From Obrimoposthia wandeli (taxonomy: Eukaryota), in assembly GCA_977020255.1 (NCBI GenBank), contig CDROCS010000907.1, positions 62,001 through 126,000 of the forward strand: 64,000 nt of DNA, given 5' to 3'. Made by a program: the position numbers and the translations under genes. The notes under the pieces were generated by a model. That model did no database searches. It was not told the DNA's origin and saw only the letters and a program-made list of their open reading frames with translations. Below, piece by piece: positions 6,601 to 62,399 of this stretch (the stretch's first letter is position 1; every line of letters starts with the position of its first letter).

Positions 6601-9600
6601 TGAATTTTAATTTTTTAGAATAGAAATAAAATGAAATAGGTCACTTATTTTATTATTTGAATATTTAATATTTTGAATTTTAATTGTTTATTTTTAATGT
6701 AAGCATTAATTATAATGTCGTCATAGGCAGAACGCATAAAGATAGTATTGATATATATTATTGTATCATTGTAATCCGAAGCAGTCCACGCCAAATTAAA
6801 AAACAATATTTAATAAAACATATGACTATTTTAATGCATATGGATTATTATCATACAAAATGTATTCCAAAAATTTATAATCTTTTATTAATGAATTTAC
6901 ACATAAAATTGAGATAAAAATAAATGGTAAAACATTCAAAAATAAAGTTTTAACTTCTTTGAATAAATTGTTTTAATAATACTTAATTATTTTTATCAGT
7001 GTTTAGCGCCAAATTTAAAAGTAAGGAAAACGGTCGAATACTGCCTATAAATTAAATGACTCGTTATTGAAGTATATCATTATCCTTTTCTGTTGCATGA
7101 TATTTTCTAACTGATTATATATATTTTTTAATGCGGATCTCAAATTTGAAATCAGTTTTCCTCTAATTTCCTCTAGTTTTCGTTTCTCTAATATTTATAA
7201 AACTTTTTCGTATTTTATGATGCACATGAACTTTTTATGTGAAAAAATTAAGAAACTTGTTGAAAATACATTTGTGTTGAGTATAATTTTAAGACTATAT
7301 GACTGTACATTTTCTATATAGACCATACCCCAATGCGAGTCGTCTAAATTTGCAAACAAAAATAGAGCTTACAGAGAAAATCTAATTGTATATTTTAATT
7401 CAGCATACCAAAATTAGTTAATAAAAAAATGCTGATATCATTTAAACAAAAACTTTATGTCCGGTGATTAATTTCTTATCGAATTTTATAACAATAATAT
7501 ATTTAATATAGCGCTAATATTTAATTGATCTATGATTTTTTATTCAAAAGCGTTTTCTGCAATTCGTAATAGTTCCTGAATGGTAAAGTCTAGCTGCTTA
7601 TTGAAATTTTAAACATGGACACAGTTTCTTATATTCATCAGAAAATTGTTGTAAAGATTTGGAGCAACGATCATTGTTGCTTCCAAAAATTTACAATCCA
7701 TGCACATATTTTCCAAACATTATAAATATTTTCTTCTTTAAAAATTGTGCCTTGCATAAAATTACTTTAATTTTTTTTAAAGTCATCATCTGATATTGAT
7801 TTTTAAAAAAATTAACTAATATAATAAATTTATATGATTATGGAAAATTTGAGTTCAAAGTACAATGACTTGATCATTTTGGTGAGTTCTAACCTAACTT
7901 AACTGAATATTAGTCACATTTTAAATAATGATTTTTTCAACACAGTTAAGTTTATTACAATTTTCATATACCTTATTTCAAAAAGTGACCAGAGAATCCA
8001 TCTTACACTAACATTATATACATTAAAAGATACGGATAACTCGTCATAAGAAAATCCCCTTCAGATAAACTATACAAATTGAGGGTTATATCCGCGCATA
8101 ACTTTTAATTTTGTTGTAAATTATAAATATTTTGAATACTTAAATTTTATTAAAAATTAATTTCTCGCTACTATATCAGTAAAAGAGAAATCAGAAATTA
8201 TTCTTGATTACGAGAAGAATAAACTTTATAAAAGTGATATTCAATTAAATATCATGTCATGAGTCAAAGTTTCAATTCATTGATTAAAAAGTGAGATGAT
8301 AAAGTAAAATGTTTGGAAGAATCAAGTTTGTCAAGTCAGCATAAAATATTTGATTGCAGAAAATTCACAACTGGATGAATTTCTCTTTAAATGGTTCATA
8401 CACATGAGGTCCAAAGCCATAAATGGTCTGTTACATATAGTTAAATCAAATGATTTTCCTACACACCTTCATGATAAGAACTTTGTATGTAGTGAAGGTT
8501 GAATACAACGCTTTAAAGTGATACATGAAATTGGTTGCCGTGTGGTAAGTGGTGAGGGTAAATCAGTTAATCCTGAAAATGTTAATCGATGGTTAACTTC
8601 TTGTGGAATATCTTTGAGGAATTTATACACTACGGACGAAACTGGACTATTTTAGCAACCATTTCCAAGTAACACTCTAGATGAGACAGGAGATGCATGT
8701 ATTGGGGGCAAATTAAGCAAACACAGAGTGACAATTACGGCCATGGCGAACGTGGATGGCTTGGATAAAGGAAATGTATGGTAATTGAACGTGTAGTATA
8801 TGTACTATATTATGTTTCTAGAATTATGAAATGTTTTTATATTATTAATGTTTTAAGATAAAAGTTAGTTATCTTGTTTATGATTTACAATCCATATTAT
8901 TCATGTATCTACTCCCATTTAATATCAAAATATTTATAATTTTTTAGATTTTGAATCTTCACTAAAATTGAATTTTCGCTTTACCACGGGTACGTCGTCC
9001 TTTTCTCTTCTTCCCTTGAGATAACGAGTTATCTGTCTTTACTGTAATGTAACAGGCGTTCTCTAAAAATCGGGACAGTTTGTAATTGTTATTTTAACAT
9101 TCTTTAAACAAATCTAATTTAAAGAAAAGTTACGGGTCCGTTATAACGTTGTACAATTATAATGCAGTATAAATCGGGACATCCTTTGGCAAGTAAAACA
9201 CAAATTGTCAAGTACATTCGCAGTGTAAGGTTCAAGGGTTAACGTACAACGGTATAAAATGTATTGGAAAAGTATGAAGAGAAAGTAGAGATTGAATAAA
9301 CAAGAGATTCGTTTAAGAAAACACTCAGTTTGAAGACATTTTCTCAACGAGTTCTTTATTGTGATCTGGGATCTGTTAGCACTTGATCGTGGATGGTATT
9401 GTAGGGAAGAATATCGGTAAATCAGTATTAGTATACAAGAATTCTCCAAAGTTTTCTAAATGATATGGGATGAAGTTTTTAAGGATCTAAATGGTTTATT
9501 AATTATTTGGTAATTTAATTTTCTGTCGAATGATATATTAATCGTTTCTATTCACAATTATAAACCATTTACGATTTTGAATATATTTTTACGGGATATT

Positions 9601-18600: not shown

Positions 18601-21600
18601 GAGTTCGTCTTTCTGGAGTATTATCGACAAGTGGTTGAAATGTAAGCAAATCCAGACCTTCATTGTCAGAAACCAACCGACTCAAACGCCATGCATTGGC
18701 CAAGGAAGATTATATCAAATTCACAAATAGTGGCCACCTCCACTGCTTACCTTTTACTGAGATACGGTATCTTGAAACAAATGAATCATGTAAATCCACT
18801 TCGCCCATATACTTATTATAACTTTTGATCATTGTTGGTTGATCGACATTGATTAACTTCTTCTCGGATTGACTGAAGCGCTTGACGGAACAAAGTGGCA
18901 TAATGTGTTCAAAACTACTTGCCAAACACACATTCGCATTATCTTTCCATTCCACTGCAGTTATTTGAGCACTATTGTCATGGGCCCAATCAAATGTTCG
19001 TCGAGCTTTTTTGTTCCGAGTTTTACAGTCCATAAGGGGGCATTGTACAGGTCGGTTTTGGCGAACAGTTCCTGTAGCAAACATGCCATCATAACGTAAC
19101 TGTTCTAATAGTTTGTAGGACGTTGTATCTAATGCTATCACTTTCCACCAAAGTTTCGAAAACGCAACACCATCATTTAATAACTTTTAATCCATGGCTA
19201 AAAATTGACCATTTTTTAAAAATATACCATAGTATAATGCGTATGAATTTTATTCTAATTCTTCGAAAAATAATATTTATAATGTTTAATAAACATTACA
19301 TTATATAGAAGAATAAACATTTTGGACCAGTAAATCGGGTCTGTGGTTTGGGAAAGCAGTTAAATATTAAAAAATCAGTAAAATAAATAATCAATGTATT
19401 TGAATTTCTGATGTAGTTATAGACACGTACAGATTAAAAAATCAACAAATAAGCAGCAAACAGTTATTTATGTAGTGTTGCGAAAACACAACATTGGTGG
19501 TAAATGGGTTAATAGAATAAAAATCTTAATGTAATATGTCGATTTAGTATTTTATGTATATGGACAGTTGATTTTTTTTTCTATTAAAAAATTATTCACG
19601 AGTTATATTAACTATAATCACTAAAAAGTATCTAATTGTTCCATATTGAAATTCTTTTTTGTAATATTTTATTTTGGAAATAGCGTAACAAGTTTCGTCT
19701 ATTCCAAATAGTCCAATTTAATTCTATATCTGATTATATGAAAATAAACTCTAAAAATTCTGGTTAGGCCATGTTTTCAAAAACGTAAATCAAATTATAA
19801 AAAAATGCAACATTGTGAGAAAACGTAACCCCAAAATATCTTGCAATATATCTTTGAAAGATCATTTTAGTTAAGATGGCACTACACAATCCATTCTTCA
19901 TATCATAAAATATTCTTTGATATGATCAAATCTCTAGTAAACAGAAAATAAGAAAATAAGGTTGTGGATTAAAGCTATAATTGAAATAACCAAATTGACA
20001 TGTTAAGGTGGGGCAGAAGAGTGACAAATAAATTTCATGTTTCACTGACTTTTATAAAAATTTGGGATCACGTCTGAGTTACCCCCTATAAACAGTACAA
20101 GTCTGAGTTACCCCCAATAAAAATAACAAGGCTGAGTTACCCCCCAAAATTGTTAGTTTTGCTTTATTCAACAAAAAAATGTCATAAAAAAACTAAAATT
20201 CTAAAAATTTACTTTTATTCAATTAAAAAAAGATTAAAAAACTCTTCCACATTACCTCGGACGAAATAAACGTACCAGAGGAACTCATTAAGAAATTCAT
20301 TCCTTTTAATTCCCAAAACACCTTTTTTTCCTTAATAGTTAGTTTTAATTTATTGTTAAAACTCTCAACTCCCTGAGTATTAACTCCACTTTCCGGTTTC
20401 CCAAAATGGTATTTGTGACACACGGTTCGGTGTTCAAACCCAGTAATACTTCCCAGGGTTTTATAACTAGCAAATTCATCAGTATGGATGATACTTCCAT
20501 GTCTTACAACTTTGGAAATAATGGGAATGATTGTGGTTTTGGTTCTGTTCGGTAACAAACATCAAAAACATTTGGCTGGGGTCGTAGATGTATCAACAAT
20601 ACATAACACCCATGTTTGACTTCTTGGAGCTCTTCCTCGATGGGCTTTAACTGTATGGTTAACCATCACTTCATCAATCGGCACAATACAGCCTGGCCCA
20701 CCGAGCATGATTGGATTTTTCATGAAATGTGTATCAATTTATTTATTGAAACGTTTTTTTAATTTTCAGATTTGAATGTCTTGCCATTCCAACATAGTTT
20801 TCAATCTCAATCAATATATGTTTGTTACAAAGGTGTCCTAAAACTACTAAAATGTTCTTCAAAGGTTTTTGAACATTAAAAAAACCGAATTGGTTTTTAT
20901 ACTCTTGGTTGTTTGAAATTTAATACATCTAGGGTTAAGACACCTCCAATTGTATCCATCACAATTATCTTTGGCGGGTTTCAATATCATAATAACTTCA
21001 CAATACTTACAGGACATATCTACCTTTATTAATCCTAGTGTCATTGCAAACTGAACGATTTCCTCGTTTTGCGACCTTTCTACCTTGGATAAAAATCCAT
21101 GTAATAACATTTGGGTGGATTTAAAAAAAAATTTTAATCAATTAATTTATTAATCAATTACTAACTAACTCAAATCCTCCTGTATCCTTCGGATAGGACC
21201 TACGGTCCCTAACTAACTAACTAAATAGTCATATTTTTATAAATAAGTGTATTTTTTATGTTGTTTAGTTTTATTTTTTTTATTTGCAAAAAAATACAAG
21301 TCTGAGTTACCCCCCAAGTGGGGGGTAACTCAGACTTTGTCCAAAATTTGTTCATGTCAATCTTAGGATATGAAAGAATAGGTTCTAAAGACATGATTTG
21401 ATTATGTATGGAGCTGATGATTCACTGATTTCATCAAAGGCTTACAACGAAGCTTACTTTTAAAGAGGAGATTATAGCTCACATTGGGTCATTCTACCAT
21501 ATGTTCTTTCCATCCACCTCATCAAAATACTTGCCTGTTCTATCTTTTATAAAGTTGTTTAGCTATTTTATTGAACGCACCCCGACAGCTTTGGCATTTC

Positions 21601-47711: not shown

Positions 47712-49110
47712 TACATGTAATAGTTATATTGTACAGTCATGAATTGTATTCATTACACATAAATTAAAATGTTAAAAATCTATGTATCTTTAAAAATACT
47801 GCGTTTGACTAAAATCCATAATAATTATAACTTTTAGGAAGGTTCATTTTCGACACTGCCTATTAATTTTATTATCACCTTATTTTATACTTTTTCTGAA
47901 TAAACTTATATATTATTAAAACTAGAAATGGTCATACTTATGTACAACTTATATTTGGTATCCATTTTCTTAGATTGTGTCAAATTTTTGTAGTGGAGCA
48001 TATTCCTGATACAAGAGTGTGTTTCGCAAGACGAGAATTTTAAAATAATATTATTTGACACGTCTTTTTGAGTTGTTCAATGTTAAATTAATGTAAACAA
48101 ATTCTCTATGATTTCTCATTAATTATTTCAATTTACCGCTTTTGTCGTGCTGTATTAACATAACGAATCGCCGTCTTCAGTTATTTGAAGCGTTTTTGAC
48201 TCATGCAATCACAGAAATAAAGCACGAAAAAAGGTAAAATTTAAATATATACTCAAAAAATATATAACAAACGACGGTGTTGAACGGCAAAAGGGATAGC
48301 ATCAGTTTTTCAATGCGAAATTGATATCGGAATAAGAAACAAAATGCACAAACACAGGCATTAATTCATTCTAGAGGAGTAATCAAAGGATCACCAGGAA
48401 TGTAGAAGATTATCGCTAAAGTTATATTTTTTGAAAGAGTTGTCTTGCTTAATCGACCAAATGGGGAGAACTATTTTATGCACAGACCCATTTCTTAGCT
48501 ACTAGTCGAAAAACATGGCACGATGCATATATTTTAACGAATTATTTGGAGATTGAAAAAGGAACAACAATTCAATAAAACACCACCAACGTGAAGCACT
48601 TCCGAGACCGTTCATATTAAGATTAAACATTTCAAACACCAGAATTACAAAATAGTAACACATTAGATTTTGACTATAGTGACGATATTCCAGAATAAGA
48701 AATTGCCAGAATAAAAGATATCGCTGTAGTTAGAGGATATATTTGAAGTAATGCAAGAAATAAAAGAATGTGACGAACAATATTGGAAACTGACTATTAA
48801 ACATACAAAACTTATAATATTAGCTAAAAGAGAACTTTTTGTTATAAAACAATGATAATATGTCATAAATGACACAATTGTAAAAAGAAACGGCAAATTA
48901 ATCACACATACTTGAGTTACTTGGACAATTCTGGAATGATTCCGCATCATAATCATTAAGCTGCAAAAAAGTTTGAAAATGGAATTAACAAACAAATTCT
49001 TATCGCGTAATTTAGTATTCAACTATACATTTTGGAGTAAACATGATACGCCGAGAAGGGAATATAATTGAAGCACAACAAACAGCAGATATTATTGGAG
49101 TAAATAATTT

Positions 49111-52100
49111 TTGTCGATTTGTCGAAGAATAATAGATCGACAAGTGAGAAACATTAGATTTCACTATCCAAACAAAGGAAGTGGACCGACAGAGTGTAAT
49201 AATTCGATAAATACAATATACCATATGGGAAATATAAATGGAGCGCAGCGACCAGCAGCTATCATTAGAGTAAATAATTTAAGAGTAAAAGCCTTAATTG
49301 ATACAGGTGCTGTAGCTTCGATAGTAAGTGAAGACTGTTTGACAGAGGAACAGAAACGAACAATGGCAGAACCAGATGAATTCTTGGTATCGGTCAATGG
49401 AGACCCTGTTAAAGTGACGGGAATATTACCATGTACATTTATAATTGGGCGTAACACGATCACTATACCAGTTAGAATCATGAAAGAATGTCCTGAACCT
49501 ACAATTTTAGGAATGGATGTACTATCACAACTTAAAGGGATAAGTATTGATTTACAAGATCCAAGATTGAAGGATAGCACATCAAACAGACAAATAAACC
49601 AAATTGATGTAATTATAGAGAATCCTATAAAAATCGGTAAAAGATCACAATTTCTCATTCAAGGTCACACATTATCAGAAGATAAAGGACCAGTTGTGTT
49701 CGAACCATCACGAGATTTCATAGAGAAATACGAATTACCAGTTGTGAGTACAGTATGTCTGATCGAAAACCACAAAATACCAGTTAGACTGATGAATACA
49801 ACCAACAATGACATTCTATTATACAGAGGAATGAGGTTGGGAAAGATAGCACAGATGGAGAATCCCACCGTGTGTGCTATGAAACTCGATAAAGATACGA
49901 ATGATTATGAAGAAATAGTAATCCAATCAGAAAGACTGACAACTAGAGAAAAGAAACAATTACTTGATCTATTACATAAATTTCCGAAAGTAATTGCAAA
50001 AAATCCATATGACATAGGAGAAACACCTGTCATAAAACATACAATACCACTGACAGAAGACAAAGTAGTCAGAAGAAGACCATATCGAGTACCATTACAA
50101 TTACAAGATGAAGTAAAAAGTCAGATCGAAGATATGTCTAAAACAGGAGTAATTAGACCGAGTTTTTCGCCATTCTCAGCACCTGTGGTGTTGGTAAAAA
50201 AGAAGGATGGGAAAATGAGATTCTGTATAGATTTCAGAGAACTGAACAAGATCACAAGAAAAGATGTGTATCCATTACCTAGAATCGAAGAGATGCTCGA
50301 TAAATTGGGTAATTCAGATTATTTTACGACATTGGATTTGCAGAGTGGATACTGGCAAATCGAGATAGAGGAAGAGGATAAACACAAAACAGCCTTTTCC
50401 TGCGGAGATGGATTATACGAATGCGAAAAGATGCCATTCGGACTGACAGGAGCTCCAGCAACATTTCAGCGTTGCATGAATTTTGTGCTAACATCGTGTG
50501 CAAACACGATGGTTTATATTGATGATATCATAATATTTTCTAAGACGTTCGAGGAACACCTAAAAGACCTTGAAGTTGTATTTAAAAGACTGGAAAATGC
50601 TAAATTAAAAGTTAAACCTACAAAATGCGAACAGGCTAAGGAGCGAGTAAAATTTTTAGGACATATAGTATCGAAAGAAGGTATCCGACCTGATCCAGCA
50701 AAGATCGAGAAAGTAAAAGCGCATCCAGCGCCAAAGACTGTTAAGGAAATACAGAGTTTTTGGGTCTTGCGAACTATTATAGACGATTTGTTGAACAATT
50801 TTCAGATATAGCAACACCATTGAGAAAGTTGACGAGGAAAGATGAGAAGTTCATATGGGAAAAAGAAGCACAACAAGCGTTCGAGCGGATTAAGGAAAGA
50901 CTGATAAAAGCACCAATATTAGCGTTTCCAGATATAAACCGACAATTCATACTAATGACAGATGCAAGTAACTATGCTGTAGGAGCAGTATTGGGACAAG
51001 AGGATGACAAAGGAAGAGAACACGTCATCGCATATGGAGTAGAGGGTTAAACAGAGCAGAAAGAGGATACTCTGTTATTGAGAAGGAATGTCTAGCCATA
51101 GTATATTCATGTAGACAGTACAGACACTACTTGCTAGGACAAAACGTATTCCTGTATACAGATCACAAACCACTACAGTTCTTGTATAAACATAGAGACG
51201 AGATGAGTAGATTAAACAGATGGTTTCTGAAATTGGCCGAATTTGATCTAGAAATCCGTTATAGAACCGGAAAGTCGAAGGGCAACGCAGATTGTTTGTC
51301 GAGATTGATAAATGTAGACGAGAAAGGAAACATAATTCCAGAAGAAAGTCAAGATGAAGTCAGTGACCAAAAAGGAGAAGCAAATCTACTAACGATTTTG
51401 CTGAAGACGGGTAAAATAGAAAAAGAGATCACCAAGGAACAGAAAGAAGATGAAGAACTGAGTCTAATCAAAGAACTGTTAGTGAAAGGAGATCTAAATG
51501 ATGAAATGACGAAAAATACTCGATGAAAAAAGGAATCTTGTATATTGTCAACAATGTCGGAAAGATAGTAGTAGTAATTCCGAAGTCATTGAAAACAGCA
51601 GTGAAGATCCAGTATCACGATGGAACACTGGGAGGACATCTGTCAGGACGAAAGACAATAGCCAGAATCAAAGAGAAGTACCATTGGGATGGTATGGAAG
51701 ATGACATAAAACTATGGTGAAAACAATGTAAAGTATGTTTAACCAGAAAAGACACTGGAACTCGTACTAAAGTTCCACTGAAACCGATGCCAGTTCCTTT
51801 GGCACAAATGGAATTCACAGCGATGGATATATTGGGATCATTGAGAGAATCGAGTAAAGGAAACAAGTACGTCATAGTATTTACGGACTACATGACGAGA
51901 TGGGTAGAAGCATACCCCATGCAAAACCAGAAGGCTGAAACAATAGCGCAGATCTTAGTGGAAGAGATAATATTTCGATACGGAGTGCCTAGAAAGTTAA
52001 TAACGGATCAAGGCAAGAATTTCACTGGAGAAGTAATAAAAGCAGTATCAAAGATATTTGGAATCATCTTCATTCTTCACCATATCACCCACAAACCGAT

Positions 52101-52745
52101 GGTCTAGTAGAAAGGTTTAATAAAACTTTATGTATCATGGTACAATCTTATTGCTCCGATAAGCAAGAGGATTGGGATAAGTATTTACCTTCATGTTTAT
52201 ATGCTTACAGGAATTCAGTTCGAGAGGCGACGGGTCACACACCATTCTATCTGATGTATCTCAGACAGAACAATATGCCAATGGATCTGGAGTGAACCGA
52301 ACCAACATATCAGTACCTAGAAACTGAACAATACATTGTCGTCATGAAGGAAAGACTACAAGATGCTTAAACTAAAGCAAAATTGAAATTGAAATTCAAT
52401 CAAGAAGGTTACAAGGAACAATATGACAAAAAGGCAAAACCACATGAATTTAGAATCGGAGATCAAGTGATGATATTTTACCCAGTCATCGAACCAGGTC
52501 TATCGTTTAAACTTCACAGACCATACAAAGTACCATACAAGGTGATACAGACAATTTCAACGAACTTGAAAGTAATCAACGAGGAGAACCGGAACAAGGA
52601 AACAATGATTGTACATGCGAATCGATGTAAACTGGTACCGAATAAAGATAATGCGTCACGATATGAGCTAAGATCACAGAAATTGAAGCTGAATACCAAT
52701 ACTATTAAACTTACACGAATGATCGAAGTGATCGAAACTACATAA
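49111..52745 (+). pseudogene. pol: Ty3/gypsy pol (protease-RT-RNase H-integrase), disrupted
   Basis: LIDTGA protease; RT (PFSAPVVLVKKKDGKMRFCIDFRELN, LDLQSGYWQ, MPFGL, YIDD); RNase H (LMTDASNYAVGAVLGQ); integrase HHCC (GGHLS...C..C), core (FTDYMTRW, LITDQGKNF) and GPY/F-like tail. Gypsy domain order; frameshifts near 50760, 51050, 51520 and 52100. Confidence 0.95.
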
Positions 52746-52750
52746 ATACG

Positions 52751-55700
52751 ATGACAAGTGGTAGCGATGAAAAACCAGCGAGAATTGGCATGCTCAGAAT
52801 GAAGCACCAAGAGGAACGAGAAGAAATCCGACACATCGCATCACAAGAGATATTAGAAGAAGACGAAGAGATCATAGTCGTTTTCGAAAGAACACAACTA
52901 ACAGATGTGGCGAAAGAAGTCAGTGTAAAAGATGCACTAACAAACGAATTTATGTGCGAACTTAGAGTGTCATATTTCAATGGAAATACACTAGTCGCAG
53001 AACTGCATCAAAACTCCAATGTGTTTACGACTGAGAAAGTGATAATAGAAATCACATTGACATCAAACATAGTTGCATGGCAGAACTATGACAGTACCGA
53101 AGCATGACTAGCCAGTCAGGAAGAAAAAGAACCGGCCGGTGGTAATATACTTCATGGTACACCAAAAAGACTCAAACAGGAATACCATGATGTGATAATG
53201 GTATTACGCAATTCACATGGGAAAAAAGATATAGTGAGAGTTCATTTAATCGACGCCGACACAAAAAAGATAATATGTCAGATGGTCACCAAATACTTTG
53301 ATGGAAAGACCATTGTATGTAATATACCGGTATCTCACCAATTGAAAACAGATCAAACGGAAGTATTTGTAAGGTTGAGCGTAATAGAAGGATTCCATTC
53401 GCCAACCCAACCGGAAGTAACAAACAATAACATCGTTGAAGCAACGGCAGAGTTACGCATTAACAGCGGATACCGAAAGTGGGAAGCTAAAAATAAACCA
53501 CAAAGAATCAATATGATCAGAGAACAAGCGACAAACTCAATCCAGCCAATATATCATGCTGAAATAGTATCATCTGCGCCAAGTGTGATTACATCGATAA
53601 ACGACGAAATTATAATTTTACTAAAAAATCGATGGCCATCATCAACCGAGATACGAGTCAACTTAGTGAATTATGCAAAAACACCGATATCTAAGCTAAA
53701 TGTCACCTATTTCGATGGATTGTCCATCATGGGTAAATTGGAAACAATTGTCATGTGCTATGGAGCACAGTTCCAAGTTGAGATAATTAAGGATAGTGTA
53801 ATACCTTATTAGATTCATAGAGACTCAGGACCAGTCAATCCAATTATTCTAACCCCTTCATTAATTTCAGTTCAAACAGACATACCAGAACACCCTTCGA
53901 GCGAGTCTAGTCAAGACAGCGAACCTGAAAGCAGCGATCCAGAGTCAACAGAATCCGAAGACAACATAATAGAGCGATTTGGAAGAACCATGGAGGTTGA
54001 ATTCGCCAAAGAAAACAGAAAAAGATGAAACATAGAATTCATGGAAAAGAATATACAAGAAAGACGAATTAAATCCGCAGAAGAGACCGAGTCAGAAGAG
54101 GAACTAACGAAGGAACAGACATCAGAGACAAAGATGAATATCTCTCCAGCAATACGAATGCTGAGAGGAAAGAAACTGGCGAAATTATTCATCATAGATG
54201 AACAAATAGAAAAGCGATTAGAAAGACTGAGACTTGAGGAATCAGAATTGATGCCACCAATGAGTGAGATAATTCCAGACATGTTATACCTCGGAAATGT
54301 GGAAGACGCAACAGACGAAAAGAAACTGTTGGAAAAAGGAATAACATATGTGATCAATGTTACAATGAATCACTAATCACGATACAAGACAATCAGAGCT
54401 ATGACATTAAGAGTGAAAGACTAAATGGAGGCTAATCTTCTCGAATGGTTCGGAGAAACAAACGAGATAATTTACAAAGAACTCCAAAACCAAGGAAAAG
54501 TATTGGTACATTGTCAGAAATAAATCTCTAGATCAGCAACCTTGGTATTAGCATATCTAATAAAGAGTAGGCGAATGCAGGTACTAGAAGCGCTGAAATA
54601 TCTACAAGAGAGACGAAGTATCGCGAACCCAAACCTTAATTTTTTGGGACAATTGTCAAATTACCAACTCTTGTTGCAAGAACGGAGACGGATGGATGAC
54701 ATTCCCGAAGATCCAAAGGAAAAGAATTTCCTCCAATCACTATCGTTGACCGGATTATTCTTAGTAGGAGTCGTTAAAATCACCCAGATAATGCCGCAAG
54801 TATTTCTATGTCAACCAATAGATATAGATACTACTGGATTGAAGTTCCACAGTATCAACAGAGTGATTAACATTGTTGAATTCGAAAACGAGATAATCAG
54901 TATATGTCAAAATACTGAAGATGATAATACACGTTATATACATGCTTCAAATCGGGAGGTAACCCACGCACAACTACACCTGAGGAAGTTGACTCAAACT
55001 ATCCAAGCCAAAGTCACAGAAAGAAACGGCGTTCTGATATATCAGAAAAAAGGTACAATGTTAGCACCTACCATAGGTGTATCCTTGTTGGTAGAGTACA
55101 TCAGAGGAAACGATGGTCTACATCAAACAGAATAGACCAGATACGGAATTCAAACCGTTACTCGTTCGAGAAATATAGAAATACTCCGAAAGAAGGTAGC
55201 AACAACGAGAAATGAATGAGTTTTCAACAACAGTGCCCAGCTATCAGTACCGAAGATTGCTAGCACTAGCTTGTTAAGTTGTCTAATGCCAACAACGGGA
55301 GCACAAGAGATAGGCTCCAACCACGGAAATAATTCCTGGATCAAAGAAATCAACAACTACATCATGCAGTACAATACACCGACACTGATGATGCTATTAG
55401 TGTTGATAGGACTGATCGATGTTTGGCTTATCAGAAAATGTATCCGATCCATAAGAACCGACATAGAAAGATTCCAGTTTGTAAAAATGAAGAGATCAAA
55501 CGGACCAACAACCCAAGCACTTGTTTATCTAGACGAAAGGATCGAGGAGAACATAGTGAATGAAGCAATATATTATCCACAAAACAGACGACTGAATCAA
55601 TTCCGAATGGACTATGAAGCTGACCGACAGCGCACACTCGATAGAATATCAGCAACGTTTGCAGGATGCGGGCTTGTAAAATGAATTGTAAAGGAAATAC

Positions 55701-57580
55701 AAAAAGATGCAGATACAAAAGGTACGACGTATATATTCGACGGCGATGTCATCAAAACACGTGAGTATGGAAGTAAGAGAGTGATAATCGAAACGAAGGA
55801 AGGACATAAAACATGCTTGTCCGCCAAAAATGGATTCGGAAAGCTGGTGATACAAGGTAAACAGGTACAGTTGATTATCGGGAAAGCCGGAGTCGAAGAA
55901 ATGTCAAAACAACGCCAGACAACCAAGACAAAACGACATGACCAGAAACGGGTGTATCTGAAACGAATAATAATCAAAACCGTTTTGAAAAGGACGACCA
56001 AGGCCCTGTACACTGTCGCACAAGGATTGATCTACGGAGTAGTAATTGGATTGGTACTACAAGCCATTCCAACGAGTAAAGCTGAATTGATGACGCTACC
56101 TGAATATAATCTACATTTGAGAAATCTAGATAACACCCTAGAAATAATCAAGACGTCTCACAGTAAAGCCGTGATGATCACGTGTGTGAAAGGATATCCA
56201 GAACGAGTATATATAATACCAGCGACAGAAATGAAAAAACTAAATGGATATTATGGAGTTAATGTTGTCACATGTGAAGGATACACATTTGTACAAACTA
56301 AAATAGTACATATCAGTGACATGTCCAAACAAAGTACACATAAATTTAAAATATTAACCATCAAAAGTAAAGGGATACAAGCAATACGTTATGGTATTCT
56401 AGAATTGGTTAATCCAATACTGGCATTGATTATCGGAATCATAATATTAATACTACTCCTCTTGTTTTGTTGTACAAAGATCGAGCTGAAATCAAAAAAG
56501 AAACGTCATGATCTCGCAAGACGAACAGGTAAAATTAATTTACAAAAATTCGACACAACTATACCAAGACCAGCATTAATAAATGAACCAGCACCGGAGT
56601 ATCAGCCAACGATATATGAACATATCGAGGAAAGACCGTACTTCATGAGTAACTTGAGTTATCCCAGAGAAGTTCCTGAGATTCGGATTCGAACGATAAT
56701 AGGAATCATGTTGATCATACAAATCACCACGACCGAGGCTGGTTACGAGATCATGATCAGTAAATGGAGACAAGATACGATACGTGCGTTATACATAGAA
56801 ATACCTATACTAAAAACGAATCACATAGTAGACATTCAACTACAAACATCCGCAACCGAAAATGTCGATCAGAAATTGTATGTCATCCGCCAGATTGAAA
56901 TAAAGATTGACAAACATACACTTTACTACCGACTGATACTATTCTATTATGAAAAGATATTATACCTACGAATAACAATATCAAAAAAGAAACGGATTAT
57001 CCAAATAATCCGAACAAAGTCAGTAATATTGCCTAACGACGAGCGCATCTGGAAAGTTATTGACAGGATTATGGTCACAGGTAAACGACGTAAAACTGTA
57101 TGGAATTCTGTTAATTTATTCTTCAGATTGTTAGAAACTGACCAGGTAACAGTGGCGTGTCCCAATCCAGATGACGGAATCAAATTCGCAATACAACGCC
57201 AAATGTTAGTACCACATTATGATGCAGAATGTCTATGTAACCGAATTTCCAGTGATGCTAAAGAGACCTCTACCGTAATCATAGTAATAACAGGTGAAAT
57301 ATTCTATATAACTCTAAGATACCAGACACGTTGATTTCGTGGACTAGGTATGAGCATCAGACCCAAGAAATTCAATTCCGGGAAACCAAACACAGTCATA
57401 AAGAAGGCAAAGGTGAAAGGAAGACAGCTCCATTCCGAGAAGCCAAAAGCAGTCATAAAAAAAGGCAGAGGTGAAAGGAAAATAGCTCGATTCCAGAAAC
57501 CAAAGCACAATTATCGAGAGGTCAAGAGTGATGGAAACGATTCCACTGGATCTCAAATCTCGAATAATAATACCCTTTAG
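52751..57580 (+). pseudogene. Single ~1,610-codon post-pol frame (TIG-like x3, DUSP, multi-TM env-like polyprotein) with ten internal nonsense codons
   Basis: ORFs 52751, 53192, 54041, 54542, 55271, 55781 and 57350 share one frame; the gaps between them contain only isolated stops (53105, 53810, 54026, 54374, 54422, 54521, 55133, 55217, 55682, 57332). Confidence 0.85.
54260..54680 (+). pseudogene. Dual-specificity protein phosphatase (DUSP/VH1-like) domain within the element polyprotein
   Basis: MSEIIPDMLYLGN...GITYVINVT...RVKD...GKVLVHCQK*ISRSATLVLAYLIK...EALKYLQERRSIANPNLNFLGQL: the full DSP fold motif set, with HCx5R interrupted by a stop. Confidence 0.92.
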
Positions 57581-57699
57581 ACAAAAAACAAAATATCCGA
57601 TACTGCGATTTATTAGAAAATCAGACATAATACACGGAAACCGAACAGCACCAATGGTAACGCCATCTAAACCAACAAACATCAAAATAAAATCAATCC

Positions 57700-57906
57700 T
57701 CAGACAGCGGGATAACTACAGTCAATGCTTTAATTGTAATGGCCGTAGTGTCAACTGCAGTAGTTCTTTTGACAGTCGTGTGCGTGAAAGGCAGTCAGGT
57801 ATGCCCAAGAATACGACGAAGATGCAAAGAGCTACGATGCTGTAATACAACCATGATGGAGGAAGTGGAATTGCGACCCTTACCTCCGCCTCCCATCAAG
57901 ACATGA
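57700..57906 (+). pseudogene. Frameshifted C-terminal transmembrane anchor and Cys/Pro-rich tail of the polyprotein
   Basis: SSDSGITTVNALIVMAVVSTAVVLLTVVCVKGSQVCPRIRRRCKELRCCNTTMMEEVELRPLPPPPIKT*. Confidence 0.6.
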
Positions 57907-58033
57907 CAAGTCAGAGGAGGTTGTAGATAAATTAGTGTGTAAAAATATGTAGAGATATATAGAAGCGAATGTACAAACAAGTGTAGAATCATGTAAAATT
58001 CATGTAGAAATTAATTGTCATCATGTATTTAGA

Positions 58034-58723
58034 ATGTCTGAGGAATGCCCAATATGTTTGGAAGATATAACCGAACGAAGAACAAGACCCAATACATGCA
58101 ACCACCTACACCACGAGGAATGTTTATCAAAATGGATCCCAACTTATGGAGAGTTTCCCCATCCAACATACCCTCGTTGCCCTGTATGCAGAAGACAATT
58201 CACAAAGTTCATCATAATAGAAACCAACCAAGAGGATGTAGATGTACAGGTGGAATTTTGTTGGAAAAATTTGAGAGAAAGTTGGTGTGTATATTCTGTA
58301 CAGCAGAACGACAAGATCCGACCACTTTTGTGTAAACATCACACAACAACCAACCCTAAATCGAGCCCAAATTCAACATCACCCTCTCACAGCAATGTCT
58401 GGAGAATGTTCCATCTGCTACGAGAACATCGTGGACCTCTACACCAAACCCAACAACTGCGAACACAAATTCCATGTCCAATGCCTCGAGACATGGATCC
58501 CAGTTGTCAACAGCAACAAGCCCCTCGACTACTCAACCTGCCCGATGTGCAGGGCATCCTTCTCGGTACACTTCGTATACAACCGAGACTGTCTTCAAGT
58601 AGTGGTACCCATCGTACACTGCTGGAAGGACATCTGCGACTGCTGGTGCATGTTCTGCGCGGAGGAGCGACGCACAGGCCAGTCCGACAGCCAAAAATAA
58701 TCGAAGGTAACTTTTTGAAATAA
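58034..58723 (+). CDS. RING-H2 finger protein 1 (putative E3 ligase)
   Basis: MSEECPIC...TCNHLHHEEC...W...CPVC, a C3H2C3 pattern; the 3' part overlaps RING 2 in another frame. Confidence 0.85.
   Translation: MSEECPICLEDITERRTRPNTCNHLHHEECLSKWIPTYGEFPHPTYPRCPVCRRQFTKFIIIETNQEDVDVQVEFCWKNLRESWCVYSVQQNDKIRPLLCKHHTTTNPKSSPNSTSPSHSNVWRMFHLLREHRGPLHQTQQLRTQIPCPMPRDMDPSCQQQQAPRLLNLPDVQGILLGTLRIQPRLSSSSGTHRTLLEGHLRLLVHVLRGGATHRPVRQPKIIEGNFLK
58395..58700 (+). CDS. RING-H2 finger protein 2 (putative E3 ligase)
   Basis: MSGECSIC...NCEHKFHVQC..TW...CPMC plus a Cys-rich tail HCWKDICDCWCMFC; frame intact. Confidence 0.88.
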   Translation: MSGECSICYENIVDLYTKPNNCEHKFHVQCLETWIPVVNSNKPLDYSTCPMCRASFSVHFVYNRDCLQVVVPIVHCWKDICDCWCMFCAEERRTGQSDSQK

Positions 58724-59017
58724 ACGTGACATCATGAACTAACCCTGTGTATCGCATACCGCGGTAAAATAGCTACCATAATTGTAATCATATTTGTATA
58801 ATCTTGTGAAACTGTAAAATGACCTTTACCAATTTTATGTATGATGTTTATTTGAAATTGTAATTATTATACTGGGAAACCCTAAAGACAATTTTATACT
58901 TAGAATGCGAAAAACATACCCAAAGAAAAGACAAAAATCGGTAGGTTAAAATATTAAGGTTTAAAATCATATAAACTTCAAATAAAAAAGTGATTTAACC
59001 GATACACCATTGTGCAA

Positions 59018-59547
59018 ATGATATGCTCGGTGTGCCTAAACAAAGTTCGGGACTCCTCGGCAATCCCTGCCGGGTGCCGACACCGATTCCACGAAACGTG
59101 CCTCTATATGTGGGCCAAAGCTCGACCCGCCGGCAACATCACATGCCCGATGTGCGAGCACCTTTCACCGAGTGGACGATCCAATGCTGTGGACGTTCAA
59201 AGGGCACCCGCTCACCTACCAGCTGTATTGGTGGCGAGTGGTGTCGATGCCCCATCTGTCCTGTGCGCCGTCGTGACGCGCAGCGCAATGTACGAGAGGT
59301 GTGGTGGTCTAGCCGTGATCACCACTCGTGGCAGTACGCTCGGCGAGTGTGGCTCAGCAACCATGAGCAGCACAGTTCCGGCACCCCTCTAATCCGTTAA
59401 AGCCCGCATCTGAATATTTTCCAGCAGCTAGGGCTTTACCAGGGTGACACTCCAGTGTTCCCAACGTTGCCCCTGGAGCGGGTGATGCTGTTCCTGGAGG
59501 AGCGGAATAGGCCAGTGGCCACCATCAACTTAACAATGGATGACTGA
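59018..59547 (+). pseudogene. RING-H2 finger protein 3, 1-nt frameshift near 59155 and stop at 59398
   Basis: MICSVC...GCRHRFHETC..W...CPMC; the shifted frame continues RAPFT (compare RASFS and RRQFT in the paralogues) with a Cys-rich tail. Confidence 0.8.
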
Positions 59548-60336
59548 TGGAACACTGACACTTTACCCTTTCCTTCACCTTTTCCTTCTCTTAACCTTCT
59601 CATTCTTAAAACAGTCATTTTTGTAAAAATACATGTCAATGGAATATTTGTTGACCATTTCCGAATTATTCGAATAAGACCGAAAAATACCAATTCTTGT
59701 CAACTAGTGGGTATGTTGAAGAGTAATTGAATGTTTGAAATTAAGTGGGGATGTTTTTTCTAAAATCTGGGATTAGTAAATTAAAATCGATACGTTCCGA
59801 GGACGTAACTTTTTTGGAACCCTCGAGATATGTTAGGATTAGGTTTTGATTAATTTAAAATAATTAATCATTTTTATACTAAAATAAAAATCCTTGAAAG
59901 CAAGGTTACAATTAAGATAAAATTAATTATAAAATTAAAATTATAAAAATAAAACCATTGGAAAATATTAGGACCACGAAGGCCATGTGTAAGCATGTGC
60001 AGTATATATAGATATTTAAACTAAACCAAAGGCCCCAAGAAAAACAGAAGAACTTCATTAAAAAGACAGAAACACAATCAAAGAAACATCGAAAAGGAAT
60101 CAAGGTAAGAAATATTAGCATTTAGCTAAATTAATTTCTTCCATATAGAGTGCTCGACAAGGAAACGAACACCGGACTCCATTAGTCATCAGTGGGAGCC
60201 AGCAGATGATAGTCTGCCGAAGAAACCGATTCAATTAGACCGATTCCATTAGGACTGTCACAGGAGGTGAATTTCAATATAAAAGAGAAATTACTTTATT
60301 TTTAAGAAAATATAATCCAGGAGTGAAATTTGGGAA

Positions 60337-60483
60337 CAGAAAGTCAATTTGAGAACTCGTCGATCTAATCCGAGTAGGAGAATAACAGAAAGTCAATTTG
60401 AGAACTCGTCCATCTAATACGAGTAGGAGAATACCAGAAAGGCAATTTGAAAGCTCGTTTATAGAATCCGAGTAGGAGAAAAC
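60337..60483. repeat. Three 49-bp tandem repeats
   Basis: CAGAAAGTCAATTTGAGAACTCGTC...GAGTAGGAGAATA at 60337, 60386 and 60435. Confidence 0.9.
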
Positions 60484-60692
60484 CAAAATAATTAGAGAAG
60501 CAGAAAAGGTGGGTCTGCAACGCAGAAAGCGAATTAACTTTCCTTTTTAGAAATGTAGAAAGGAGACAAAAGGAGGTCTTGTTACACAGACATCTGGGAC
60601 CAGGGAACTCGCACCGGACGCAGCTATCTCGGATTGAGGAAGACGCACTGCGAACTTGCACCAGACGTGCAGGCCTATCCGGAGGAAGGTAA

Positions 60693-60960
60693 GAAGTGCG
60701 AATTGATTTTATTCTAAAATAAGTGTTGTATTGAAGTAAATTTAAACGAAGAAGTGCGAATTGATTTTATTCTAAAACAGTGTTATATTAAAGTGAATTT
60801 TGAACGAAGAAGTGCGAATTGATTATTTATTCTAAAATAGTTTTTTTTTATTGTTGAATTTTGATAAAGAAGTTAAAGTAAAACTTGAAATTGCCCTATA
60901 TTTTACCGTTGAATTTTGATAAAGAAGTTAAAGTAAAAACCCTAAACTGCCCATATATTT
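60693..60960. repeat. Three 58-bp repeats followed by two 55-bp repeats
   Basis: GAAGTGCGAATTGATTTTATTCTAAAA at 60693, 60751 and 60809; GTTGAATTTTGATAAAGAAGTTAAAGTAAAA at 60853 and 60908. Confidence 0.88.
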
Positions 60961-62399
60961 AGAGTAAAGACTCTAGTTAACAAACGACCCTCAATTAAAA
61001 TCGATACGTGGACCATCACCAGTTGTGTAGAGACTTGTGAATGTCTTAGGAATAGTATTGTCAATTTTAGAACGTAATTAGAACGTGTTTAGCTTAGTGT
61101 GTCTAGTAATAAAAGATTTCCTACAACTAAACAGCGTTGTTATAGACCCTTCAAATTTAGAAATAACAAACCTTCAAATAAACTTAGAGACAGGCAAGCA
61201 TAACATTAAGTAGGCCACAAACATCTACAAGCCCTGCTTCTATAGAACTCACGTTGGGGCCTTCCATTCAGAGGATCTATATTAAAAAACAGTTTCATAT
61301 AGAAACCCCAACAAAAAGATAGATTAAAAAAAATCTTCTAACAATTAAAGTCTAGGAGAGATTTAGATGGACTTGATATTAATTACTTAACAAGATACAC
61401 AAGTTATAAAAAATCAAATTTTACTACTAAGAACAATTCTCATCATAAAAGGTCATAACCATAGAGTATATGCTCTACTGGACTAAGTCATAACAACTAG
61501 TATTATTAGTGACTAAGTTGTTGACTATCTAAATGTGAAGGGCTATATGGAGTCAATACCTATTTGAAAGATTGAAAGAAGAAAAAAGTAAAAGAGTTGT
61601 TAAGTGGTAAGCTGCAAAATTGAAAGTTATAATATACAAATAAGAAAATTTAATAGTGTTTTGGCGATTAAACAAACATCAGCCAAATTAAATGTTATAT
61701 ATATTGGGAAGATGCAACAAGACATTGAAATCATCTAAAATGAATAACGTTTCTTTCGATAGGAAAAGCAAGACATCAATAAGCTCCTTGGTTCGGACAA
61801 AATTGAATTACAGCGGTCTATTATCTTGTCGTTAGAAATAGAGGTGATCACGTAGACAGATTAACTTCACTGAAGTAAACATGCATATGAAGAGTAAAAG
61901 TAAATAAAGCTGTACAAAATCAAACAAATTTCATTCACACGTTGTCAATAAATACTGAGATTGACGTTCAATTAAAAAAATTAAGAAGTGGATAATATTA
62001 AAAATATATATGAGACGTCTTAAACCATTAAAGACTTATATATCAATCAACAACTAATTCATTACCTGAATGGATGGTCAGTACTCAATAAAAATCCAAG
62101 GGAACAAAATAAAAGTAAATTATTTTTTAATAATAATTAAAAAAAAAATTGTGCTAAATAATGATGCCTTGTTGAAAAGGGAATATGAAAATTTTGTTAT
62201 TATTTACCAGTTTTTATGACCTTAATAAAGTAATATATTAAAATTTTGATTATTTTTTAATTAAGCCTTACATTTACAAGATTCAATTATTTACTGAGTT
62301 TCAACCTGGATACTGTTGTATTTGTTATGGCTTTGAAAATATTAATGTTTATATATCAGATATAATTTTTATCATATAATAGGACAATTTTTTGGAAGC

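What the first reader, a model, noticed from the sequence alone, without database searches (positions are those of the whole stretch)
54260..54680. Captured dual-specificity phosphatase fused into a retroelement polyprotein
Seen: a complete DSP motif set, including LYLG, ITYVINV, a general-acid Asp (VKD), VLVHC..x.SRSATLVLAYL and NPNLNFLGQL. The catalytic Cys and Arg are intact; three stops include the P-loop Gly position (54521). Known: DUSPs dephosphorylate MAPKs/STAT, and poxvirus VH1 blocks immune signalling. Inference: an intronless, retro-captured host DUSP was retained as a cytosolic domain ahead of the first signal sequence.
Basis: partly seen in the sequence, partly recalled or inferred. 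Interest (0 to 1): 0.8.

Follow-up and report, generated by a model that had tools for sequence, protein, structure and literature searches.

The report
Giant retrotransposon carrying a captured phosphatase
A giant virus-like jumping gene, present in thousands of copies in this animal genome, carries a working-looking signalling phosphatase plus an inactive twin, probably taken from a host gene and possibly used to damp the stress signal that makes cells kill themselves.

Summary
The DSP domain is real (Pfam DSPc 115.5 bits; stops at 54374, 54422, 54521). The window holds a decayed, 5'-truncated copy of a ~22-kb Ty3/gypsy element with LTRs and a Gag-Env-Pol layout. Its uninterrupted P-loop occurs 5,793 times in the assembly (control 0). 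In other copies RT, RNase H, integrase and DSP share one stop-free frame, so the fusion is real. Both DSP domains show purifying selection (ratio 0.17 and 0.18). The host has intron-containing MAP-kinase phosphatases; one is the best BLAST match (48%), and the element keeps the MKP docking motif LNF but lacks introns and the rhodanese domain. Two trees did not join them (AU p=0.085), so the donor is likely, not shown. Best mechanism: a JNK-selective phosphatase working with the IAP-like module against stress-induced apoptosis; activity, target and expression are untested. Closest known: planarian Burro elements, for which no phosphatase is described in what I could read. New variant of a known kind.

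The parts
54260..54670 (+). DSP1: catalytic-type dual-specificity phosphatase domain (general-acid Asp, HC..SRS P-loop, LNFL docking motif); three stops in this copy
54780..55200 (+). DSP2: pseudophosphatase domain, P-loop position YQKKGTMLA without Cys or Arg; frameshifted near its end in this copy
   Evidence: second DSPc stretch in two natural copies; BLAST E 6e-8 to cellular DSPs; same strand-helix order in the AF2 model, pLDDT mostly 75-93; 0 of 59 scored copies have Cys in the loop. Bounds approximate
49114..52745 (+). pol: second aspartic protease, RT, RNase H, integrase (frameshifts and stops in this copy); homology to the main family starts at about 49114
   Evidence: Pfam gag-asp_proteas, RVT_1, RT_RNaseH, rve, Integrase_p58_C; blastn to four other copies
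52746..54259 (+). segment between integrase and DSP1: a roughly 110-aa unit repeated three times (each with a YF(N/D)G core), then an acidic Ser/Glu-rich linker; frame to integrase is broken in this copy, continuous in others
   Evidence: sequence; no Pfam match; continuity in other copies; purifying selection ratio 0.21 and 0.28
55220..57910 (+). C-terminal part of the polyprotein with several signal-like and transmembrane segments, no Pfam family over cut-off
   Evidence: hydropathy peaks at 55382-55432 and 56417-56467 here, four in another copy
58034..59392 (+). three short separate ORFs, each with a RING finger
   Evidence: Pfam zf-RING_2 34.8, 33.7 and 34.3 bits, cut-off 27.3; present in other copies
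59831..61313 (+). 3' LTR (TG...CA) with internal tandem repeats
   Evidence: matches both LTRs of three other copies; ends; tandem repeats D7, D8, D10
48404..48920 (+). decayed BIR-region remnant of a more diverged relative, abutting the truncated main-family copy
   Evidence: tblastn 33-56% to the BIR region of P0003; blastn 68-76%

Best explanation
The DSP is an accessory domain of a giant, enveloped Ty3/gypsy element related in layout to planarian Burro. SHOWN: one long polyprotein, Gag(CCHC) - class III fusion glycoprotein - protease - BIR - RING - protease - RT - RNase H - integrase - 3x repeat - DSP1 - DSP2 - membrane segments, then three RING ORFs; both DSP domains kept under purifying selection while the family spread. 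INFERRED (about 0.7): DSP1 was captured from a spliced mRNA of a host MAP-kinase phosphatase of the DUSP10/MKP5 type, without the rhodanese docking domain; DSP2 is an older or duplicated copy that lost catalysis. INFERRED (about 0.45): DSP1-DSP2 lies on the cytosolic side of the polyprotein, is cut out by the element's protease and signal peptidase, and dephosphorylates host JNK. For human MKP5 the catalytic domain alone, docking through its L-x-F motif, suffices for JNK1, while p38 needs the domain that the element lacks. With the IAP-like BIR-RING module this would keep the producing cell from stress-induced apoptosis while the element replicates. DSP2 would act as a binding or scaffold module.
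For: Single frame: PR2-RT-RH-IN-DSP1-DSP2 stop-free in 5 of 8 loci, RT to DSP2 in 6 of 8, integrase to DSP2 in 8 of 8 (loci chosen for long frames). Constant feature: 5,793 exact P-loop matches, 0 in the reversed control; of 16 loci picked from that list 15 have integrase, 14 RT and 16 DSP2. Selection, 72 copies: variants shared by 3 or more copies N/S 25/60 in DSP1 against 121/49 for private variants (stops included), ratio 0.17, p 3e-10; DSP2 0.18, p 1e-9; RT 0.02. Asp, Cys and Arg all kept in 68 of 72. Host MKP on contig C934 ranks 1 of 154 by BLAST (126 bits, 48%); it has two GT-AG introns in the domain, the element none. The [FL][NS]F motif is in 29 of 37 MKP-clade rows, 0 of 26 others, and reads LNFL in 71 of 84 element loci, 7 not scored. 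Among host P-loop exons found, two MKPs match the C-terminal half best (34 and 33 of 56; next 28). PMC4802042 (passages): MKP5 catalytic domain alone dephosphorylates JNK1; the FXF motif is needed to block UV-induced apoptosis. PMC4055413 (abstract): JNK triggers apoptosis and restrains stem-cell mitosis in planarians. BIR and RING over Pfam cut-off.
Against: Both ML trees put the element DSP outside the MKP clade (72 rows, LG+G4; 28 rows, C20 mixture, MKP clade 98/96 without it); forcing it with C934 costs 17.6 log-likelihood units, AU p=0.085, neither rejected nor shown. A count of rare shared residues did not single out C934 (7, against up to 10 for unrelated rows). The other two host MKPs rank only 24 and 124 of 154. 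The middle of DSP1 differs from MKPs and the P-loop has Lys where MKPs have Ala, so specificity may have changed. No activity, substrate, processing or expression data. The family is young (pairwise DNA distance median 6.5%, maximum 13%), so kept catalytic residues are weak evidence on their own. The host is only probably a flatworm, so the planarian JNK biology may not apply.
Confidence: 0.45

Rival explanations
1. DSP1 is a particle-associated phosphatase acting on the element's own proteins (Gag, integrase, membrane proteins) during assembly, maturation or entry, as vaccinia VH1 does for viral substrates.
For: It is translated in the same polyprotein as Gag and Pol, so it is made 1:1 with them and could be packaged. 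The MAPK-docking rhodanese domain is absent. VH1 acts on viral and host proteins and is needed for replication (bioRxiv 10.1101/2020.05.26.100743, start of abstract in listing only).
Against: It keeps the MKP-type kinase-docking motif LNF and travels with BIR, RING and three more RING ORFs that point at host death and ubiquitin pathways. Ordinary gypsy elements replicate without a phosphatase: none of the 120 long RT-containing proteins listed carries PF00782.
Confidence: 0.22
2. Neither domain needs to be catalytic: DSP1-DSP2 is a phospho-MAPK binding decoy or scaffold, and selection maintains the fold.
For: DSP2 has no Cys or Arg yet is as constrained as DSP1 (0.18 against 0.17), so a non-catalytic role exists in this module. 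STYX-type pseudophosphatases are among the closer matches (2r0b; STYXL1).
Against: Asp, Cys and Arg are all kept in 68 of 72 copies although DSP1 has drifted to 48% or less from any cellular DSP; a pure decoy would be expected to have lost them, as DSP2 did.
Confidence: 0.15
3. The donor was not a host MKP but an atypical DUSP, another organism or a DNA virus; likeness to the host MKP is partly convergent or due to slow sites.
For: Both trees group the element with atypical DUSPs on long branches; rare-residue test is negative; host DSP sampling by two patterns is incomplete.
Against: Highest identity is with the host's own MKP and its unnamed close relative P0011 (48% and 47%); viral DSPs reach 16-32% in the top 50; the LNF motif occurs in 0 of 26 non-MKP rows; the mixture tree itself warns that long branches meet.
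Confidence: 0.25
4. The domain is an RNA 5'-triphosphatase of the baculovirus PTP / DUSP11 kind that hides element RNA from sensors.
For: That activity exists within the DSP fold (recalled, no call); an RNA element could use it.
Against: Baculovirus PTP ranks 38 among viral structure matches at 21% identity; the top PDB matches are MKPs; DUSP11 is not among the 60 listed PDB matches.
Confidence: 0.04
5. An ordinary host gene or a neutral passenger that happens to lie inside a repeat.
For: The window copy is dead (three stops).
Against: In frame with Pol, thousands of copies, purifying selection with no shared stops in DSP1 or DSP2, no introns.
Confidence: 0.02

Closest known systems
Burro / GYPSM1 giant gypsy elements of Schmidtea mediterranea and Dugesia tigrina (PMC6431247, section 7 read in full)
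   Same: One polyprotein of about 5,000 aa starting with Gag and CCHC knuckle; Env-like fusion protein in frame between Gag and Pol; BIR and RING; accessory ORFs; thousands of copies; cargo tied to apoptosis and ubiquitin.
   Different: About 22 kb, not over 30 kb; two aspartic proteases flanking BIR-RING; tandem DSP and pseudo-DSP after integrase ('phosphatase' occurs 0 times in that paper); no MATH, ankyrin or Smc hit in the frames scanned; long membrane-protein tail and three RING ORFs.
GAG-ENV-POL 'errantiviruses' with gB-type Env of flatworms, nematodes and bryozoans (PMC13524379; passages, first part of section 5, supplement rows)
   Same: Gene order and class III fusogen (Pfam Monjiviricetes_fusion 310.8 bits). 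By eye the Env ectodomain follows the six S. mediterranea sequences of the supplement in cysteine spacing and motifs (not computed).
   Different: No phosphatase or BIR is mentioned in the main text, and no phosphatase in the 7 supplementary files searched.
MAP kinase phosphatases DUSP10/MKP5, DUSP16/MKP7, Drosophila Puckered
   Same: Catalytic fold (rmsd 1.1 A to MKP5 over 144 residues), catalytic triad, L-N-F docking motif as in MKP5.
   Different: No rhodanese/kinase-binding domain, no introns, Lys in the P-loop, fused to Pol and to a pseudo-DSP; not placed inside the MKP clade by the trees.
Poxvirus VH1 and baculovirus PTP
   Same: Viral use of a Cys-based dual-specificity phosphatase.
   Different: Only 21-24% identity; free-standing genes of large DNA viruses; independent capture.
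Retroelements with captured enzymes (orchid gypsy AlkB, PMC9289625, passages; rotifer extra ORFs, PMC5408684, term search only; insect helicases, PMC6338049, first quarter read)
   Same: Fixation of an extra enzyme domain in an LTR element.
   Different: Those enzymes act on nucleic acids or lipids as far as I read; this one is a protein-signalling enzyme.

Membership tests
Dual-specificity phosphatases (DSPc, PF00782) | Profile match over the whole domain above cut-off | tested here: met
   115.5 bits, positions 1-131 of 133; 139.6 and 127.2 bits in two natural copies
Dual-specificity phosphatases (DSPc, PF00782) | HCxxGxSRS P-loop and general-acid Asp | tested here: met
   Interrupted by a stop in the window copy; uninterrupted in 21 of 26 scored loci of 30; Asp, Cys, Arg kept in 68 of 72
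Dual-specificity phosphatases (DSPc, PF00782) | DSP fold | tested here: met
Dual-specificity phosphatases (DSPc, PF00782) | Phosphatase activity | not testable with these tools
   needs an assay
MAP kinase phosphatases (MKP) | N-terminal rhodanese/kinase-binding domain | tested here: not met
   No Rhodanese hit in the 500-600 aa before DSP1; the host MKP relative P0011 has one. So not an MKP as a gene; it may work like an isolated MKP catalytic domain
MAP kinase phosphatases (MKP) | FXF-type docking motif after the last helix | tested here: met
   LNFL, as LNF in MKP5; 29 of 37 MKP-clade rows against 0 of 26 others
MAP kinase phosphatases (MKP) | Placement inside the MKP clade | tested here: inconclusive
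   Outside in both trees; AU p=0.085 for grouping with host C934 and P0011; first by BLAST
Ty3/gypsy LTR retroelements | PR-RT-RH-IN order | tested here: met
Ty3/gypsy LTR retroelements | Paired TG...CA LTRs, target-site duplication, primer-binding site | tested here: met
   LTR pairs 94-99% identical in 3 of 4 copies examined; 4-bp duplication in 2 of 2 copies with both ends readable; TGG-starting PBS 8 bases after the 5' LTR in 3 of 3. Its likeness to tRNA-Met is recalled, not tested
Burro | Single Gag-Env-Pol polyprotein of about 5,000 aa | tested here: met
   Env, both proteases, BIR and RING in one 1,548-aa frame; PR2 to the C-terminus in one 3,118-aa frame; longest stop-free frame holding the DSP 4,633 aa; total about 5,450 aa is inferred from spacing
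Burro | Total length over 30 kb | tested here: not met
   22.1-22.6 kb in 3 copies
Burro | BIR domain | tested here: met
   43.4 and 47.8 bits, cut-off 22.9
Burro | Ubiquitin/SUMO-like, BCL2-like and dUTPase-like domains | tested here: inconclusive
   ubiquitin E 0.022, under cut-off; a BH2-like ENGGW motif just before Env by eye, no Pfam or PDB support; no dUTPase hit
Burro | MATH, ankyrin and Smc motifs | tested here: inconclusive
   not detected in the 15 frames scanned, which do not cover every residue
Burro | RT groups with Burro RT | not testable with these tools
   no Burro RT was available; the RT search listed only distant elements at 34-50%. Filed as Burro-like, not as Burro
Poxvirus VH1 / baculovirus PTP | Closest kinship to these viral DSPs | tested here: not met
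   21-24% identity against 48% to the host MKP

The most novel reading that the evidence does not exclude
An infectious, retrovirus-like element of an invertebrate has assembled a complete anti-death cassette: an IAP-like BIR-RING, possibly a Bcl-2-like domain, several RING ligases, and a JNK-selective phosphatase made by keeping only the half of a host MKP that suffices for JNK, with a pseudophosphatase as new targeting module. With thousands of copies, its expression would measurably lower JNK signalling in host stem or germ cells, so that a transposon tunes apoptosis and tissue turnover of the whole animal.
Probability: 0.2. Interest if true: 0.85.

Novelty: new variant of a known kind. Interest (0 to 1): 0.64.

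Why it matters
Captured phosphatases are known from large DNA viruses; I found no report of one in an LTR retroelement (paper searches; open-access library only; Repbase and the original Burro paper were not available). It gives a concrete enzyme with which to test the open idea, voiced for Burro, that these giant elements interfere with host apoptosis and ubiquitin systems. The active-plus-dead tandem, both under selection, is a natural experiment in how a pseudophosphatase arises. At about 22 kb a copy, 5,793 copies would be roughly 9% of the assembly if all were full length (rough upper figure), so the family matters for the genome itself.

Tried and rejected
No relative in another genome was found: none of the 150 best representatives has similarity to the element outside the DSP, best single-domain identity 47%; no PF00782, PF00653 or PF24664 among the 120 listed of 1,675 long RT proteins, a list dominated by mis-annotated multi-RT models; nothing in viral or metagenome contigs (close relatives only); one search returned 0 of 732 candidates, even for a common domain, so it is uninformative. 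These blanks do not show absence in other flatworms. Sequencing runs: no RNA holder listed; four runs of one sample hold the stretch; no evidence on expression either way. Single-sequence AF2 failed (pLDDT 39). Rare-residue test did not pick the donor. DSP2's origin is unresolved: best matches are weak (about 19 bits) and neither DSP1 nor a host MKP is among the top 15. Bcl-2-like domain not confirmed (the fragment tested was truncated). The 3x repeat stays unidentified (no Pfam match). No clearly diverged DSP-bearing sister family was found among 16 more loci or 31 pattern hits. A rhodanese family search was swamped by bacterial-looking contigs. The original Burro paper was not held, so its extended data could mention a phosphatase; bioRxiv supplements were closed. 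No earlier findings of this scan matched. Rejected: separate env-like ORF starting at ATG 52751 (an effect of a frameshift in this copy); ordinary host gene; descent from VH1.

Full report
Observation. Pfam DSPc matches 131 of 133 positions at 115.5 bits and human DUSP10/MKP5 is the best of 74 PDB sequence matches. The copy in the window is a pseudogene.

Setting. Most of the window (to about 47075) is an intron-rich TOR gene (FRB exon matches mTOR). Its FRB exon matched two flatworm proteins at 53%, the only 2 hits of 78 candidates in a search that excluded full-length TORs, so the host is probably, not certainly, a flatworm. The assembly is 1.35 Gb and appears to hold bacterial contigs. From 49114 to 61313 lies a 5'-truncated LTR element: protease, RT, RNase H, integrase, a 1,500-codon extension holding the DSP, three RING ORFs and a 3' LTR. 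A decayed BIR stretch of a more diverged relative lies just upstream, at 48404-48920.

The family. A search of the own genome gave 16,097 first-look candidates; all 150 scored were 90% or more identical, about 112 of them without a stop in the domain (counted by hand). An exact pattern for the uninterrupted P-loop has 5,793 matches against 0 for the reversed control. Three of four copies examined have paired LTRs 94-99% identical and span 22.1-22.6 kb; LTRs read TG...CA, with 4-bp target duplications and a primer-binding site. Of 16 further loci picked from the pattern list, 15 have integrase, 14 have RT and all 16 have the second DSP domain. The DSP is therefore a fixed part of a young, abundant family.

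Fusion. In the window a frameshift near 52740 makes the extension look like a separate ORF. In other copies it is not: of 8 loci chosen for long frames, 8 have integrase and DSP in one stop-free frame, 6 also RT, 5 also the protease. Upstream, natural frames hold Gag with a CCHC knuckle, a class III fusion glycoprotein (Pfam Monjiviricetes_fusion, 310.8 bits), a first protease, BIR, RING and a second protease. The longest stop-free frame holding the DSP is 4,633 codons; from spacing I infer one polyprotein of about 5,450 aa. Hydropathy puts the Env anchor before Pol and four hydrophobic segments after the DSPs, so Pol and both DSPs are inferred to be cytosolic.

A second domain. Directly after DSP1 comes a second DSP-like domain: Pfam finds two stretches in natural copies, BLAST gives E 6e-8 and an AF2 model shows the same order of strands and helices (pLDDT 85.5 overall, pTM 0.60, so the arrangement of the two domains is uncertain; the alignment of cellular DSPs leans the model to this fold). 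Structure searches tested only the first domain. The loop of DSP2 has no Cys in 59 of 59 scored copies and no Arg in 57 of 59: a pseudophosphatase.

Selection. On 72 copies I compared variants private to one copy (decay after insertion) with variants shared by three or more (passed through replicating lineages). DSP1: private N+stop/S 121/49, shared 25/60, ratio 0.17, p 3e-10. DSP2: 119/50 and 24/57, ratio 0.18, p 1e-9. RT 0.02 and integrase 0.00 (14-15 copies), linker 0.28, C-terminal part 0.59. No shared stop occurs in either DSP. Caveats: the loci were the best scorers of two searches or chosen for long frames, which favours well-kept copies; recurrent mutation blurs the classes; the family is young (median distance 6.5%).

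Origin. The host has at least four rhodanese-plus-DSP genes. In those on C934 and C2055 two GT-AG introns split the DSP domain (C2967 has the same exon pattern); the element reads through both positions. Against 154 sequences the C934 MKP ranks first (126 bits, 48%) and its unnamed close relative P0011 second; the next is 117 bits, and the other two host MKPs tested rank 24 and 124. Among host P-loop exons found by two patterns, two MKPs match the C-terminal half best. The [FL][NS]F motif is in 29 of 37 MKP-clade rows and 0 of 26 others, and the element has LNFL. Against this, two ML trees place the element outside the MKP clade among long branches, the AU test is undecided (p=0.085) and a rare-residue count is negative. 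Viral DSPs are distant (16-32%; poxvirus 21-24%, baculovirus 21%). I put capture from a host MKP mRNA at about 0.7.

Mechanism. PMC4802042 (passages read) shows that MKPs bind JNK1 through an FXF motif, L-x-F in MKP5; that the MKP5 catalytic domain alone dephosphorylates JNK1 while p38 needs the N-terminal domain; and that the motif is needed to block UV-induced apoptosis. The element has kept that motif and lost the N-terminal domain, which predicts JNK selectivity. JNK drives apoptosis upstream of IAP loss in Drosophila (PMC6451367, passages) and triggers apoptosis in planarians (PMC4055413, abstract). The element also carries an IAP-like BIR-RING and three more RING ORFs. The most economical reading is a module that keeps the producing cell alive. 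The anatomy, fusion and selection are shown; processing, activity, target and expression are inferred (0.45). Rivals: action on the element's own proteins (0.22), non-catalytic decoy (0.15), RNA triphosphatase (0.04). The rival on the donor (0.25) is a separate question from the function.

Comparison. Planarian Burro elements share the single Gag-Env-Pol polyprotein, BIR and apoptosis-related cargo (PMC6431247, section 7), but exceed 30 kb and no phosphatase is mentioned. A 2026 survey lists flatworm GAG-ENV-POL elements with gB-type Env; 'phosphatase' occurs 0 times in its text and in 7 supplementary files (PMC13524379); their Env resembles this one by eye. RT kinship with Burro could not be tested, so I call the element Burro-like. 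Six paper searches (listings, with term searches in PMC9289625 and PMC5408684) showed no LTR element with a DSP; the original Burro paper and Repbase were not available. No DSP-bearing relative was found in protein or contig collections, which hold little unannotated invertebrate repeat sequence.

Verdict. A real, selected, polyprotein-fused phosphatase and pseudophosphatase pair in a giant Burro-like element: a new variant of a known kind, interest 0.64.

Noticed in passing
window:3369-47075 (+): Host TOR kinase gene in many exons, with GC-rich exons carrying poly-Gln/Ala/Ser insertions in AT-rich introns; the element remnant starts about 1.3 kb after its stop codon.
   Followed up: partly
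window:52820-53810: A roughly 110-aa unit repeated three times (YFNG/YFDG core) between integrase and the DSP; no Pfam match, under purifying selection (ratio 0.21); unidentified.
   Followed up: partly
L034:2684-7327 (-), P0003: Two aspartic proteases flank a BIR-...-RING block, an IAP-like unit, inside the polyprotein; one clear BIR and perhaps degenerate further ones.
   Followed up: partly
L034:7130-7327 (-) and L037:2641-2967 (+): Helical segment ending in an ENGGW motif just before the Env signal peptide, reminiscent of a Bcl-2 BH2 motif (recalled); not confirmed by Pfam or PDB.
   Followed up: partly
window:58034-59392: Three small RING-finger ORFs between the polyprotein and the 3' LTR, GC-richer than the rest of the element; how they are expressed is unknown.
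   Followed up: partly
window:48404-49113: Remnant of a diverged relative joined to the main-family copy; a 53-nt stretch like the protease start is repeated at 49058 and 49228 (81%), suggesting recombination or nested insertion.
   Followed up: partly
window:60335-60481 and 60680-60873: Tandem repeats (49 and 58 nt units) inside the LTR; their number varies between copies and between the two LTRs of a copy.
   Followed up: no
window:18710-19186 (-) and 20223-20561 (-): Transposase-like remnants in TOR introns (piggyBac-like and IS1595-like by eye, not tested).
   Followed up: no
window:13311-13962 and 6175-6785: A perfect 300-nt direct duplication (spacing 352) and a 98% 216-nt duplication (spacing 395) in introns; recent duplication or assembly artefact.
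   Followed up: no
G000 contigs such as C253, C372, C400, C506, C665: Many uninterrupted rhodanese genes clustered on a few contigs suggest bacterial DNA in the assembly.
   Followed up: no
L105-L106 (C934), L111 (C2967), L107-L108 (C2055), L112/L121 (C1544): Four host MKP-type genes; two have the unusual P-loop HCWAG.
   Followed up: partly
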